Assembly (NCBI GenBank): GCA_023920165.1
Contig: CP089276.1
Span: forward strand, 1,798,001-1,862,000
Direction of reading: 5' to 3'
DNA length: 64,000 bases
From: Curvularia clavata
Lineage: Eukaryota
Both the position numbers and the translations under genes were made by a program. Shown here piece by piece: positions 14,650 through 64,000 of the stretch; the stretch's first letter is position 1; each line of letters starts with the position of its first letter. The notes under the pieces were generated by a model. It worked only from the letters and a program-made list of their open reading frames with translations, was not told the origin of the DNA and made no database searches.

Positions 14650-14731
14650 TCTTCAGTAGTATAGTGGTCAGTATTTCCGCTTGTCATTTGACAAATCGCG
14701 GGAGACCGGGGTTCAATTCCCCGCTGGAGAG
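14650..14731 (+). tRNA. tRNA-Asp(GTC) with 10-nt intron (14687-14696), apparently intact
   Basis: Acceptor stem TCTTCAG/CTGGAGA, D-arm GTATAGTGGTCAGTAT, anticodon GTC at 14683-14685, T-arm CGGGGTTCAATTCCCCG, downstream T-run. Confidence 0.93.
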
Positions 14732-16396
14732 CTTATTCTTTTTTTTTTTCGCTCACAAAGATCTTCTGTGGTTTGATGGGAGGTAAGCTAGGGCTGATTC
14801 GAATGTACGTGCGCTGGTTTTTTTGTGCGAGGACCCGCATGCGCTGGGACTAAGCGAGGGACCAAGGTCTTGAGGTATGAAAATGAGCAAAGCAGGGCTG
14901 CTCGGGTTAGTATAGTATTGCTCATGTATAAAGCACAGGCGGAGTAGACTTCCATTTGTACGTTTTTATTTTATTCTGCTGCAACGTTTTCGTGACGAAT
15001 GACTTTCCTACTCGATCTCAGTGCATCTTCAAGATGACTCTCTGATCGATCTCTCTACAATCAAGCATATGCTCAATGCCTTTGTACGCTTGCTGGTGAC
15101 GCTTGCCTTTTGTATTGCCATTGCCTCTACATAACGTTGGCCAGACTAGAAGGAAAAAGTAGTTTGTTTGAATGCACAAAACCCAGCTCACTTCATCGTC
15201 GAATCTTTGCTGATGAGACGTCTGTTCTTTCAGGCCTCTGATCTCTCCATTATGCACCACCGCCGATTGAGTGGTTGGTGCGATTTTTGTCTACCATTAG
15301 GACACCTGTGGCTTGGTGGTTGCATCTACGCCAAGCTAAGCTGAAAATCGAGGGGCGCCTATATAAGTAGGCACATTTATAAACTTTAGCTTAGACTAAA
15401 AAGATCTTCTGTAGAATGGAATCTGTAGCCAGCTATAATATGGATAGGCCAGTTGCAATTAGCAACGTGCGAAGCATGTGCGCGCGGGACTAAAGAGGGT
15501 TTGCATGAATGTAGAGGGGTTGCCAAAAATACAGTTAAAAACGGTATTCAATTCTTGTTCTTCTCTATATGTGTACAAAGCTCTCTTATTATGCTCGCTG
15601 CTTCGGCCCTATTATAGGAGTTACCCTCTGCTGTGAGCGGAGTAGAGTTTCCAAGCCGTCCGCTAACTAAAGCTGGTTGTACGGACAGCTAGGAAGATTA
15701 CTTTTCTATAGTTAACTGATGTATTTTACAACGCTCAAATCCTTGAAATCTCCTAGAAGCGACTATGAAGGGTCCGTGAAACACGAAAACAGCGAGAGTC
15801 TCACTTTGTGGAATTGAAGTGGTTTATTGCACATAAAGGTCGACTTGAGACGCCCTCAGATTACCTGACACCCAGGAGCAGCACCTACTGCTTTGTAGGT
15901 ACGATGGCGATACCGTGGCCTCGAAAGGCCGCGCTGAAACGCAGTTCGCCATCTTTGCTCTTGACCAGCGAAACTTCCAGGCAACATCCTTGTTGGACTG
16001 AAGAAGCCTTTTTGTCCAAAAAGAATGAAATCTTTCTTCGATAGACTTTCCATAAAGTCACCCGGTTACGGCGGAGGTTCTTATGGTTGCGAATGGACAA
16101 GGGGGTACTGATGAAGGGTCGATTGTCGACGTTGACAAAATAGTTGACAGCAAGGCTAACATTGCTATCGTTCTGGCCGGAGGCTTGTTCAATGATAGAG
16201 AAACGGTTGAAGAACATTATCATATCGCCCATAGGTCTTTATACTTGCGAGTAGGAGGTAGCGAAGGTCCGAAGTGCGAATATGTCCCGTTACACCGTGG
16301 GTCTCGACACGTAGGGACGGACGTTAAATACACCATTCGATCTATAGAAGCCACTAAAAAGCTCGCCATCATGTAGCAAAGAGGAGAAAGGTTGCC

Positions 16397-18560
16397 CTAA
16401 GAAATACGTATTCGTTTCCCAAACAAACCCCAGAACGTTCCGATGAGCATGGTGATAGTGAAGAGGGGTACTGAAGCGTTCTGTAAGTCCTCAGGATGAT
16501 ATTTCATCCAATAAATCCAAAAGCTGAAGCCTGATAGAATGAGAAAAACATGGTAGGCAAGAAAGAAAGCTAAGGATGGAAAATATCTCGCTTCAACGCC
16601 AAACGCAACTCGGTTAATGTAGTTGAAACTGGGCGCATGTACACGCGAGGATGCGTTGTACATTCCCTTCTTCTGAGGAATACGCGTGAGAAATCGACGA
16701 TCAGCTGGGATGTGTCGGCACTTGTTAATATATACAGGTAGAAAAGACCAGTAGCAGATAGGATTACACGCGCGAAGAAGAACTGAAAAGCGGGTAGGGT
16801 CGATAAGGGGCATTTTCGCAGTTGGCGGTCGCGGATCATACTCGTAGTCCGTGGTGTAACCATGATGATCTGGAAGTGCTTCGCCAACACAGGAAACATG
16901 CTCGTTAAGGATTTCTTCAAACTGATAGAGTTAGGTTGAAGCAAAATCATCACCTCAATTTGTACTCACCTGGACGAATCGGCAGTATCTAAACCTGTAT
17001 GGCGAGAACCAATGTTGAAAGCACCAACGGTGGCTTTTGTGTCTTTTTTTGATTCTTCAAAGAACATAGGATCGCTTAATTGCGAATGGTTCTCAATGTT
17101 CTCGATCTTATGAAATCCCCAGATGTCCTTGATGCCGAATACAAATCAGAGAGAATCGACTGGAGTTTGGCTGTTTAGAGCATTGATTTGTGTCTGAGTA
17201 TTGACATTGCCATTTGAGGGGCTACCTTGAGGTGGTATTGGCTGCTTTCCGTATGGCAACGAGTGCGAAGTGTTGGCGCAAGTGTTTCTAGTCGGAGTGT
17301 ATGGAGTGTAGCGCAGATTGGCTTTTGATGGTTGAGTAAGTGTAGTTGGCAAAGCCTTCCAGATAACATGATACATGTGTTCAAATATTGTGGTCCAACT
17401 TAATTGCACCGGTCGCACTTTGCAGCAATAACACTTAGGGGAATGCTCGCTCATTGCATCTAAAGTATGCTGTATTAATGTTGACTCCTGTGGAGATATC
17501 ATTTTGTACAGTGTCTCGCCGCAAAACTTTGTATTTTTTAGCATATATATACAAGAATGGAAAAAGGCAACTCACTTCCCATTCAAGCCGGAGTCAAGCC
17601 GGTAACTCGAGGTCGCAGAGGCCACCAGTCCCACTGACTCATAGTATATGTCTCGATAAAGGCCTTGCATTGGTTTACGAGAGACATATCGTTCTCATTT
17701 GAGAATCTGATTCGGTGTTTTGGAGTACTCTCCAAAATTTCCCTTAATGAAGATGGAAGGGCGAGTAGCCTAAGCTGTAGTATCAAACTCCCTAGAGGAG
17801 TAGCATTTTGAAGAAAGCTGTATGCCTTGTCCATGTTCGTTGGCGTTAGTGTCTTCAAGTGATTGACTTCCAGATCATCCGCTTCACCTAAGCTCTCTTC
17901 ATCCGAACCATCCACCACTTCCGGTGCACAATCTAGTGGCCCATAGATATTGTTTGCCCACTCCTCTAGCAATTGCTTCTTGAGCGGCTGAACAGCCAGA
18001 TCACTGAATTGCTTCCTGTCTCCAATATCTTCCGGCCCCAGATGGTCCACAAACTGGAGCGCAATAGAAGTACGGTTTCCTCGATTTTCAATCACTTTTA
18101 CCGTATCCTTCTCCAGAGCCGTCTGCGCCTCCTCCTTCAGTTTCAGAACGTATACTTTCAGACTCCTTCGGTAATTTTCGATAAATCGCGCGGTGCCAAG
18201 CTTTTCTAGAAGGTCGTTTTGTAAAGCACGTAAGCCGTCTAACTCAGCGAGAAATGTACCGAAGAGTCTTACGGCAAGAAGTTCTGGTTCCGTTTTCCGC
18301 CTTGGTGCTTGTGATGCGATGTCTTCTTTATTCGATGCTATTGAAATGTAGTCACTGATTTCTTTCTCGTGGCTTGCGATTACCGATTGTTCCGCTTCAA
18401 TCAATTGTGCTTGCTGATCTACGAGAGTTATCCCTGCGAAGCTCGATTCTCCGCGGTCTGATATGGAACCGTTCTCTGCGAAGGACACGTCATCAAGTAT
18501 ATCCACTCCAGCAGGTAACAGCTCATCAACCCTTTTGGTTAGGTCTCTTAGCTGCTCAAT
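16397..18560 (-). pseudogene. Conserved fungal hypothetical membrane-anchored protein, disrupted
   Basis: WDWWPLxPR motif then CG exon, C-terminal transmembrane pair around DLQNASVP; in-frame TGA at 17146-17148 and apparent frameshifts (~17045, ~16815). Confidence 0.55.
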
Positions 18561-63504: not shown

Positions 63505-63560
63505 CCTAGTGGATAAGCGAGCGCCTCACCCCACCAAACCTGCGCACCTCCGTAAGCGTG
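63505..63560 (+). mobile_element. Isolated pogo-like terminal fragment
   Basis: GTGGATAAGCGAGCGCC.CACC matches 29578-29600. Confidence 0.5.
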
Positions 63561-63679
63561 TAGCTCTACCGCAATTCAACTATCTTGATATATATTCATA
63601 TAGTAGATTAAGCAGTATCTATAACGCTCGTACGGAGCACAGGCAATTTCATTAGAATTCTGCTACAGCTGCCGTTATA

Positions 63680-64000
63680 CCCGAGTATGGCCTCGAAAAG
63701 CGGATATACAATAGCACAAGCCAGTCAGTGTTCATAAATAAGCGCTGCGATGCTGCTTCAAAGCCACCAACACACACTAAAGAACCTAACATACAAGGGT
63801 GTGAAACATTAGCTACTATGTCAAGGCTAACACACCTAAACGGAAACCCGAATTTGGCTTACCATAACCTATAGTAGAAGAATTAATAGATGGTTATGGG
63901 TAACCTAGAATAAATATTCTAGCGGATGTTGGTGTTTCTATTTACTAAGTAATTGATAGACTGTCGGAGACTAGTAGAGTTTAATTCCCCGCTGGAGAGC
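63680..64000 (+). repeat. Conserved arm + strongly decayed tRNA-Asp 3' end (copy D), runs to the window edge
   Basis: CCAGTCAGTGTT...GCGCTGCGATGCTGCTT...CACCAA..CACTAA...CATACAAGGG..TGAAAC...CAAGGCTAA, GTAACCTAGAA, ending AATTCCCCGCTGGAGAGC. Confidence 0.8.

What the first reader, a model, noticed from the sequence alone, without database searches (positions are those of the whole stretch)
14650..64000. Tandem array of cargo islands delimited by tRNA-Asp attachment-like sites (bacterial-style tRNA-targeted island accretion in a fungus)
Seen: one complete tRNA-Asp (14650-14731) with no arm upstream, then four co-oriented copies lacking a proper 5' end (28814, 33026, 35924, ~63960). Copies A-C switch to tRNA sequence at the same D-arm position (ATAGTGGTCAG), and all four are preceded by the same non-coding arm. 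The intervals (~14, 4, 3 and 28 kb) carry unrelated accessory genes. Established: prokaryotic integrative elements whose attP carries a tRNA 3' portion restore an intact tRNA at one end, leave the displaced 3' portion at the other, and pile up in tandem. Fungal Starships use tyrosine recombinases, but with short direct repeats. Inference: this is a site-specific, repeatedly reused integration platform that keeps the tRNA functional. No recombinase is visible here, so the units would be relics or mobilised in trans.
Basis: partly seen in the sequence, partly recalled or inferred. Interest (0 to 1): 0.92.

Follow-up and report, generated by a model that had tools for sequence, protein, structure and literature searches.

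The report
Split tRNA-Asp genes mark old insertions
A fungal accessory region holds one intact tRNA-Asp gene plus several half-genes all broken at the same six bases and joined to shared left or right "arms", the decayed footprints of a mobile element family that targets this tRNA, rather than a demonstrated bacterial-style island platform.

Summary
There is one intact, intron-bearing tRNA-Asp(GTC) at 14650-14731. Three 5'-truncated copies (28814, 33026, 35924) start at the same D-loop position, and a degenerate fourth lies at the window end. Each follows a right arm, though copy B shares only its last ~50 nt.

Both end at the same six bases (ATAGTG) and both run into a shared ~240-bp left arm. 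At least some insertions therefore split the tRNA (5' half|L ... R|3' half), as 5S-rDNA-targeting Starships and Dada transposons split their targets, instead of restoring it.

None of 296 ORFs of 65 aa or more has a recombinase, transposase or reverse-transcriptase domain. The arms are only 64-80% alike. Contigs of three related organisms carry junctions B, C or L2 at 91-97% identity, and the only same-species run is identical. These are old, fixed relics with no polymorphism seen.

Two surplus right junctions plus the intact gene still fit a tRNA-restoring accretion step, so that reading survives as a rival (~0.2).

Best reading (0.45): relics of a site-specific, probably cargo-carrying element family targeting the tRNA-Asp D-loop. 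I rate it a new variant of a known kind, of moderate interest.

The parts
1304..1321 (+). L1: 5' fragment of tRNA-Asp (nt 1-17/18, ends ATAGTG), 3 mismatches to T0
   Evidence: pattern match, 0.06 expected; sequence
1322..1560 (+). Left arm of L1 (GC 0.28, G>A/C>T excess against L2, which looks like RIP)
14650..14731 (+). T0: intact tRNA-Asp(GTC) with a 10-nt intron; no arm on either side
22000..22232 (-). Inverted left-arm-like copy (i22k); no recognisable tRNA part beside it
   Evidence: (nhmmer E 1.1e-12), (5 of 5 comparisons z<=0.8)
28479..28813 (+). Right arm of copy A (A-type arm)
28814..28896 (+). A: tRNA-Asp 3' part from ATAGTGG, 14-nt intron, 0 exon changes against T0, then a T-run
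32817..32976 (-). Inverted left-arm copy directly upstream of junction B; closest relative of the L1 arm (73.7% over 156 nt)
   Evidence: (z 23.6)
32974..33025 (+). Proximal right arm of copy B (the only part shared with the A-type arms)
33026..33110 (+). B: tRNA-Asp 3' part (1 inserted base and 3 exon substitutions), then a T-run
35652..35923 (+). Right arm of copy C (A-type, with an internal deletion relative to A)
35924..36007 (+). C: tRNA-Asp 3' part (2 exon substitutions), then a T-run
41294..41311 (+). L2: 5' fragment of tRNA-Asp (ends ATAGTG), 2 mismatches to T0
41312..41550 (+). Left arm of L2
63690..63932 (+). Right arm of copy D (A-type)
63933..64000 (+). D: degenerate tRNA-Asp 3' part; junction deleted; cut by the window end

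Best explanation
The window holds decayed ends of a family of site-specific mobile DNA elements. They integrate at one position of tRNA-Asp(GTC) genes: the hexamer ATAGTG, tRNA nt 12-17, in the D-loop and A box. Integration splits the gene. The left junction is tRNA nt 1-17 followed by a ~240-bp left arm. The right junction is a right arm followed by the tRNA from nt 12 to the T-run. ATAGTG is present at both junction kinds, as a 6-bp direct repeat or crossover site. All ends point the same way relative to the tRNA.

Two candidate complete units carry ordinary accessory genes. One is L1...B (1322-33025, 31.7 kb), whose two arms are each other's best inverted match. The other is L2...D (41312 to about 63932, 22.6 kb). 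A and C are right-end relics of further events, and T0 is an uninterrupted or rejoined target.

Inferred, not shown: the enzyme was a conservative site-specific (tyrosine) recombinase supplied in trans or since lost, as in Starships that split 5S rDNA. Also inferred: the genes between the arms were cargo. The elements are now immobile, mutated (partly RIP-like) and fixed in a group of related species.
For: Same breakpoint in 5 of 5 readable junctions (L1, L2, A, B, C), with ATAGTG retained on both sides.
The 5' fragments are far above chance: 3 matches against 0.06 expected, and 0 of 100 shuffles reach 3.
The left arms are homologous: score 70.5 against a shuffle mean of 25.6, sd 3.2.
The right arms are 73-80% identical.
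Homology stops at the outer edge of the tRNA parts: 9 of 9 outer-flank pairs are unrelated.
The L1 arm matches the inverted repeat next to B (z 23.6). L2 does so more weakly (z 15.4).
No direct repeats of 8 nt or more surround the right-arm units, which argues against retroposition.
Gene content between the arms is NLR, HET, patatin, CHAT-TPR, terpene synthase and methyltransferase. From recall, this resembles typical Starship cargo.
Precedents: Starships insert strand-specifically inside 5S rDNA with 6-16 bp direct repeats and disrupt it (passages of PMC11162782). Dada transposons insert into tRNA A boxes with 6-7 bp duplications (PMC3706591, parts 1-2 read).
Against: No DUF3435/tyrosine-recombinase, DDE, integrase or RT domain in 57 of 57 ORFs of 120 aa or more, 239 of 239 ORFs of 65-119 aa, or 33 of 33 ORFs of 45 aa or more just inside L2.
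No empty site and no presence/absence polymorphism was seen. It is therefore not shown that L2 and D, or L1 and B, are ends of one insertion, nor that the genes between them ever moved.
The A, C and D arms have no inverted similarity to the left arm: 6 of 8 L-against-R(rc) pairs have z<=0.3. The L2-D pair is therefore mismatched in arm type.
There are 4 right junctions but only 2 left junctions. A pure splitting model needs two left ends to have been lost. It also needs about five co-oriented tRNA-Asp genes within 64 kb.
Genome-wide linkage of the arms to tRNA-Asp could not be tested, because no genome is held.
Confidence: 0.45

Rival explanations
1. Integrative units have an attachment site made of the right arm plus a tRNA-Asp 3' part. 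They integrate into an intact tRNA-Asp, regenerate it at the left and push the old 3' part to the right. Repeating this builds a tandem array (T0 then A, B, C). A mixed version has two restoring events (units ending in arms A and C) plus two splitting insertions (L1...B and L2...D). That version accounts for every junction in the window without any deletion.
For: An intact gene is followed by co-oriented R|3' junctions with no 5' halves between them.
Parity: five 3' halves against three 5' halves, and four R|3' junctions against two 5'|L junctions. The surplus of two is what two restoring events would add.
Every 3' part has a different downstream flank.
The leftmost displaced copy, A, is undecayed: 0 exon changes, against 2 in C, 3 plus an insertion in B, and many in D.
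The right-arm ends mimic the tRNA 5' side (CAGT...ATAGTG in A and C), as the core-binding sites of an attP would.
Against: The predicted left ends of the units (sequence right of T0, A and B) share nothing (z<=2.0).
No integrase.
Left junctions that split the tRNA exist in the same family.
B's arm is a different type from A and C.
Junctions B and C and the whole unit between them lie on contigs of another organism at about 96% identity, so no unit-wise polymorphism was observed.
In one low-depth run, one contig joins 28432 to 33244 with 19 other letters between (table 5c). Those breakpoints lie outside the tRNA junctions. This is weak evidence.
Confidence: 0.2
2. A Dada-like, target-specific cut-and-paste (DDE) transposon family of ordinary size inserted into tRNA-Asp A boxes with a 6-bp target-site duplication. 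The arms are the termini of decayed, internally deleted or one-ended copies. The genes between the arms are host DNA that lay between several neighbouring tRNA-Asp genes, not cargo.
For: The duplication length (6 bp) and the target (tRNA A box) match Dada: TAGCTC in Perkinsus tRNA genes, with 6-7 bp TSDs.
In zebrafish Dada-tL, 8 of 12 copies are flanked by the target tRNA on one side only. Tandem insertions are also described (PMC3706591). That would explain the orphan right ends.
L1 and B have long sub-terminal inverted similarity.
In one related organism a contig shows two tRNA-Asp 3' parts back to back (joint 35998>35923). This hints that tRNA-Asp genes can be clustered.
Against: No transposase remnant anywhere in the window.
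No copy has a left and a right arm close together.
In the paper read, the only fungal Dada elements are from Laccaria, with no stated target.
This model needs five co-oriented tRNA-Asp genes in 64 kb and no other tRNA species there.
Confidence: 0.2
3. No targeted mobility. One ancient interrupted tRNA-Asp pseudogene with its flanks was copied around the region by segmental duplication, ectopic recombination or gene conversion.
For: The copies are clustered and co-oriented. They are old (64-80% identity). They are conserved in related organisms.
Against: The duplicated blocks would have to end exactly at the tRNA T-run on one side in 4 copies, and exactly at tRNA nt 1 in 2 copies, with unrelated DNA beyond.
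Two different arm kinds (left and right) meet the tRNA at the same hexamer.
Confidence: 0.08
4. A retroposed, SINE-like unit with a tRNA-derived 3' tail (right arm plus tRNA 3' part ending in the Pol III terminator), scattered by reverse transcription.
For: The right-hand unit ends at the T-run in every copy. The B box is kept.
Against: No flanking direct repeats of 8 nt or more around units A, B or C (best is one 7-mer).
No A-rich tail.
The separate 5' fragment plus left arm is not explained.
No reverse transcriptase in the window.
Confidence: 0.03

Closest known systems
5S-rDNA-targeting Starships (Voyager-, Enterprise- and Arwing-family elements of Pezizomycotina)
   Same: The host group is filamentous ascomycetes. 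Insertion is strand-specific at an internal site of a multicopy Pol III gene, so the gene is split. Short direct repeats of 6-16 bp match the target (PMC11162782 passages; PMC9156397 passage). Tens of kb of accessory genes lie between the ends.
   Different: The target is tRNA-Asp and not 5S rDNA. In the passages I read, the authors ran tRNAscan on insertion sites but report only 5S rDNA and AT-rich targets. No captain (DUF3435) gene is in the window. The shared arms are 240-290 bp. Mobility and polymorphism are not shown.
Dada DNA transposons (Kojima and Jurka 2013, PMC3706591)
   Same: They show strict targeting of tRNA and snRNA genes. They make 6-7 bp duplications, and some sites lie in the tRNA A box. 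Sub-terminal inverted repeats are present. Many copies have the target on one side only. Tandem insertions occur.
   Different: Dada is defined by a DDE transposase of about 1400 aa, which is absent here. Complete elements are 4.7-11 kb. The only fungal members listed are from a basidiomycete, with no target given. Here 22-32 kb of host-like genes lie between the arms.
Bacterial tRNA-integrating genomic islands and ICEs (for example the phe-tRNA symbiosis island cited in PMC9156397; the mechanism is recalled)
   Same: An intact tRNA lies at one end. Co-oriented 3' partial copies serve as direct repeats. Tandem arrays of unrelated accessory DNA occur.
   Different: This is a eukaryote. There is no integrase. 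Split 5' halves with their own arm exist. The left ends of the putative units are unrelated. The crossover lies in the D-loop, so about 60 nt of tRNA is repeated, not a short 3' end.

Membership tests
Starship (fungal cargo-mobilising element) | Captain tyrosine recombinase (DUF3435) gene at the 5' end of the element | tested here: not met
   0 of 296 ORFs of 65 aa or more and 0 of 33 ORFs of 45 aa or more in 41300-45300 match DUF3435 or any recombinase. A copy outside the window cannot be excluded.
Starship (fungal cargo-mobilising element) | Short direct repeats at both boundaries that match the target site, in a fixed orientation | tested here: met
   ATAGTG is at both junction kinds in 5 of 5 readable junctions, all on the + strand.
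Starship (fungal cargo-mobilising element) | Presence/absence of the whole element against an empty site in another genome | tested here: inconclusive
   the same-species run is identical. Other organisms' contigs cover junctions B, C and L2. No contig bridges an empty site. One contig of organism C stops at 41259, 35 nt before L2, and continues with 549 unlike letters that I could not read.
Dada DNA transposons | Dada-type DDE transposase | tested here: not met
   No DDE or transposase family in any ORF scanned. Whether Pfam holds a Dada model was not checked.
Dada DNA transposons | 6-7 bp target-site duplication inside a multicopy small RNA gene | tested here: met
   A 6-bp ATAGTG overlap within the tRNA-Asp D-loop/A box. 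The criterion is taken from PMC3706591.
tRNA-restoring integrative island (bacterial type) | Integrase gene within the island | tested here: not met
   none.
tRNA-restoring integrative island (bacterial type) | Intact tRNA at one end and a displaced 3' part as a direct repeat at the other | tested here: met
   T0 is intact. A, B and C are co-oriented 3' parts.
tRNA-restoring integrative island (bacterial type) | Related units share attP-flanking sequence on both sides of the core | tested here: not met
   Only the right arm is shared. The sequences right of T0, A, B and C are unrelated: 6 of 6 pairs have z<=2.0.
tRNA (functional gene) for the truncated copies | Complete cloverleaf with a paired acceptor stem | tested here: not met
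   Only T0 is found by ARAGORN and Rfam, even at E<=1. Upstream of A, only 3 of 7 acceptor positions could pair (read).

The most novel reading that the evidence does not exclude
A lineage of giant cargo-carrying fungal elements uses the tRNA-Asp D-loop as a conservative recombination site. Any two such sites (intact gene, 5'|L junction or R|3' junction) can be recombined. This would give both gene-splitting insertions and tRNA-regenerating, tandemly accreting units. It would be a eukaryotic counterpart of bacterial tRNA-targeted island platforms, here seen as a fixed fossil array.
Probability: 0.2. Interest if true: 0.85.

Novelty: new variant of a known kind. Interest (0 to 1): 0.55.

Why it matters
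Mobile elements that target multicopy Pol III genes are known in fungi only for 5S rDNA (Starships). For tRNA genes they are known mainly in animals and protists (Dada). A tRNA-Asp-specific family in a filamentous ascomycete would add a new target niche, and possibly a new way for accessory gene blocks to be assembled. The elements flank 20-30 kb blocks of NLR, HET and secondary-metabolite genes.

The arms and the 6-bp site give concrete search handles. They can be used to look for active copies and their enzyme, and for the empty sites that would show whether these blocks were ever mobile. If only relics exist, the finding is a modest annotation point: it explains tRNA-Asp pseudogene fragments in this group of species.

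Tried and rejected
Whole-genome access: not held (error).

Metagenome scan with the right-junction pattern gave 4 loci. Three are the same sequence. 0 of 4 continue as tRNA or carry an arm.

Read laying, parts without cover. The depth figures were not used as copy numbers.

Is the inverted left-arm copy at 22000-22232 really a B-type right end with a decayed tRNA 3' part? Its downstream 215 nt show no similarity to A, B, C, D or T0 (5 of 5 z<=0.8). Rejected as unsupported.

Are the A, C and D arms inverted repeats of the left arm? 6 of 8 pairs have z<=0.3. Rejected.

Helitron-like, LINE-like and Polinton-like readings were considered from the junction sequences. They were dropped because of no TC...CTRR ends, no RT, and no pPolB or integrase. 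The motifs are recalled, and only the absence of protein domains was tested.

Intron difference as an argument: T0 has a 10-nt intron and the truncated copies a 14-nt one. I could not tell which form the genome's other intact tRNA-Asp genes carry, so no weight is given.

Literature searches found no report of a tRNA target for Starships, or of a tRNA-Asp-specific fungal element. The searches were Starship + tRNA terms, fungal + tRNA-Asp + transposable element and Pezizomycotina + tRNA gene + site-specific. The tRNA mentions checked are either a general remark about bacterial elements or methods and reference lines. Repbase and subscription journals were not searchable.

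
Full report
WHAT IS THERE

The window is an accessory-type region of a filamentous ascomycete. Pfam finds HET domains (four ORFs at E<=1e-3, plus further exon pieces). It also finds NACHT-type NLR pieces, a PNP_UDP N-terminal NLR domain, a 1193-aa CHAT-TPR protein, patatin, an F-box protein, terpene synthase, MpaB, S15 and S41 peptidases, a methyltransferase and a fungal Zn-finger transcription factor.

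One intact tRNA is present, at 14650-14731 on the + strand (Rfam 49.2 bits; ARAGORN). Read directly, it is tRNA-Asp(GTC) with a 10-nt intron. I call it T0.

A 20-nt string from the D-arm and anticodon stem recurs exactly at 28814 and 35924. A 24-nt T-arm string recurs at 28857, 33070 and 35967. Chance expectation is 0.01 or less in both cases.

Copies A (28814), B (33026) and C (35924) all begin at ATAG(G)TGG. They run to the T-run and are on the + strand.

Copy D (about 63933-64000) is a heavily mutated 3' part. About 27 nt spanning the junction are deleted.

Against T0, the exons show 0 changes in A, 2 in C, and 3 plus one inserted base in B. None of the copies scores as a tRNA.

Upstream of A, C and D lies a shared right arm of about 290 bp, 73-80% identical between copies. 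B shares only the last 37-52 nt of it.

Searching for the tRNA's first 18 nt gives two further + strand matches, at 1304 (L1) and 41294 (L2). That is 3 matches against 0.06 expected, and 0 of 100 shuffles reach 3.

Both fragments stop after ATAGTG. Both continue into a shared left arm of about 240 bp (Smith-Waterman score 70.5 against shuffle mean 25.6, maximum 32.5; 64% identity).

A profile of this arm also hits two inverted copies. One is at 32817-32974, directly upstream of junction B (E 3e-16). The other is at 22000-22232 (E 1e-12).

The arm next to B is the closest relative of the L1 arm: 73.7% over 156 nt, z 23.6. The A, C and D arms show no inverted similarity to the left arm (6 of 8 pairs z<=0.3).

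The junction types are therefore:
- 5' half | ATAGTG | left arm: L1 and L2.
- right arm | ATAGTG | 3' half: A, B, C, and probably D.
- one intact gene: T0.

Outside these repeats nothing is shared. The upstream flanks of L1, L2 and T0 and the downstream flanks of T0, A, B and C give 9 of 9 pairs with z<=2.0.

WHAT THIS MEANS

Five readable junctions on one hexamer, all in one orientation, with homology ending exactly at the edges of the tRNA, indicate a target-site-specific mobile element. Ordinary segmental duplication does not produce this.

The split 5' halves show that insertion interrupts the gene. This is what 5S-rDNA-targeting Starships do to 5S rDNA: strand-specific, with 6-16 bp direct repeats at internal sites that disrupt the gene (passages of PMC11162782). 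It is also what Dada transposons do to tRNA and snRNA genes: 6-7 bp duplications, including TAGCTC in the A box of Perkinsus tRNA genes (PMC3706591).

The hexamer here lies in the A box and D-loop (tRNA nt 12-17, my numbering).

Two candidate complete units exist. L1...B is 31.7 kb, and its arms are inverted mates. L2...D is about 22.6 kb. Both are filled with accessory-type genes.

WHAT COULD NOT BE SHOWN

No enzyme was found. All 57 ORFs of 120 aa or more (32, the other 25) lack any recombinase, transposase, integrase or RT domain. So do all 239 ORFs of 65-119 aa (150, 89) and the 33 ORFs of 45 aa or more just inside L2.

No genome is held for the window. The metagenome scan returned only chance matches (0 of 4). 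Genome-wide linkage of the arms to tRNA-Asp is therefore untested.

COMPARATIVE EVIDENCE (stretch 21901-41900; 80% likeness; four runs chosen from the 23 listed)

The only other run of the same organism label (X2) gave 8 listed contigs with 0 differences. It is effectively the same strain and carries no polymorphism information.

Contigs of other organisms carry parts of the array:
- Organism G has a 2851-nt contig covering 30286-33024, up to junction B (116 differences). It also has a 182-nt contig joining the end of A's tRNA part to A's own downstream flank (28871-29042).
- Organism C has a 7912-nt contig running from B's tRNA part (33076) through the whole next interval, arm C, C's tRNA part and the HET gene to 39637 (254 differences, about 96% identity).
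- Run X4 has a 474-nt contig across junction L2 and its arm (41215-41688, 43 differences).

Junctions B, C and L2 therefore predate the divergence of these organisms.

One contig of organism C stops at 41259, 35 nt before L2. It continues with 549 unlike letters that I could not read, and it is the best lead to an empty site.

Three contigs of organism G match arm A but lack 113-127 nt, as arm C does. More right-arm copies therefore exist in that genome.

The arms themselves are 64-80% identical. L1 has 28% GC, with a G>A/C>T excess (32 against 13 reverse transitions versus L2). The insertions are old and partly RIP-like in their decay.

THE ACCRETION IDEA

Counting halves gives five 3' parts against three 5' parts, and four R|3' junctions against two 5'|L junctions.

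Neither a splitting insertion nor a DDE duplication can create extra 3' halves. The two surplus junctions (A and C, on my reading) therefore need one of two explanations:
- Two lost left ends, together with about five co-oriented tRNA-Asp genes in 64 kb.
- Two events in which a unit carrying 'right arm | core | tRNA 3' part' recombined with an intact gene and regenerated it.

It would follow naturally if the enzyme is a conservative recombinase that can pair any two core sites. This step is inference.

Against it:
- The supposed left ends of the units are unrelated.
- B's arm is of another type.
- No unit-wise polymorphism was seen.
- The single skipping contig found (28432 to 33244, in a low-depth run, table 5c) has breakpoints outside the tRNA junctions.

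VERDICT

The best reading (0.45) is that these are relics of a site-specific, probably recombinase-driven and cargo-carrying element family that targets the tRNA-Asp D-loop and splits the gene.

Rivals:
- tRNA-restoring accretion: 0.2.
- Dada-like ordinary transposon, with host DNA between clustered targets: 0.2.
- Non-mobile duplication: 0.08.
- Retroposon: 0.03.

My literature searches found no tRNA-targeting Starship and no tRNA-Asp-specific fungal element. I rate it a new variant of a known kind. Interest is moderate: it is a fossil without its enzyme, but it provides clear handles for finding live copies.

Noticed in passing
window 22848-26429 (-) and 26575-27519 (+): A 1193-aa TPR-CHAT protease-like gene lies divergent from a 314-aa ORF with no Pfam hit. 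The ORF's Atlas neighbours include a cluster in which 13% of members carry Bact_GSDM (score 0.95, rank 18). From recall, this looks like the fungal gasdermin plus protease cell-death gene pair. It is a lead only.
   Followed up: partly
window about 28280-28400 and 29800-30170: Short non-coding stretches are matched by many separate contigs in all four runs laid. At 29847, for example, 31, 36, 20 and 28 contigs match. This is a high-copy repeat or MITE family shared by the related organisms, sitting just outside arm A and just downstream of A's tRNA part.
   Followed up: partly
window 30170-30261 and 32703-32794: A 92-nt inverted repeat (about 80-90% complementary) brackets the F-box gene (30733-32170). 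Other genomic copies of the repeat end at 30170 preceded by TATA (loose ends). This suggests two copies or a composite of a TA-targeting TIR element. Its right arm lies 23 nt from the inverted left-arm copy next to B.
   Followed up: no
window 20653-21075: Two tandem copies of a 173-nt unit (82% identical) are followed by two copies of a 41-nt unit (88%). They lie between the NLR gene and the inverted left-arm copy.
   Followed up: no
window 21710-21909 and 34684-34868: A direct repeat of about 190 nt (73% identical). One copy is about 100 nt from the inverted left-arm copy at 22000. The other is about 800 nt upstream of arm C. It may be another internal piece of the same element family.
   Followed up: no
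window 16397-20389 (-) and 53082-55222 (-): Two NLR-like genes are broken into several stop-to-stop pieces (PNP_UDP, PigL_N and NPHP3_N/NACHT matches). Either they contain introns or they are pseudogenes. Several HET-domain ORFs (39779-40783, 49701-51109) are likewise split.
   Followed up: no
organism G contig, laid at window 35998>35923 and 28896>22170: In a related organism, one contig shows two tRNA-Asp 3' parts back to back. Another shows a tRNA-Asp end followed by left-arm-like sequence in inverted orientation. More junction types of this family therefore exist elsewhere.
   Followed up: no
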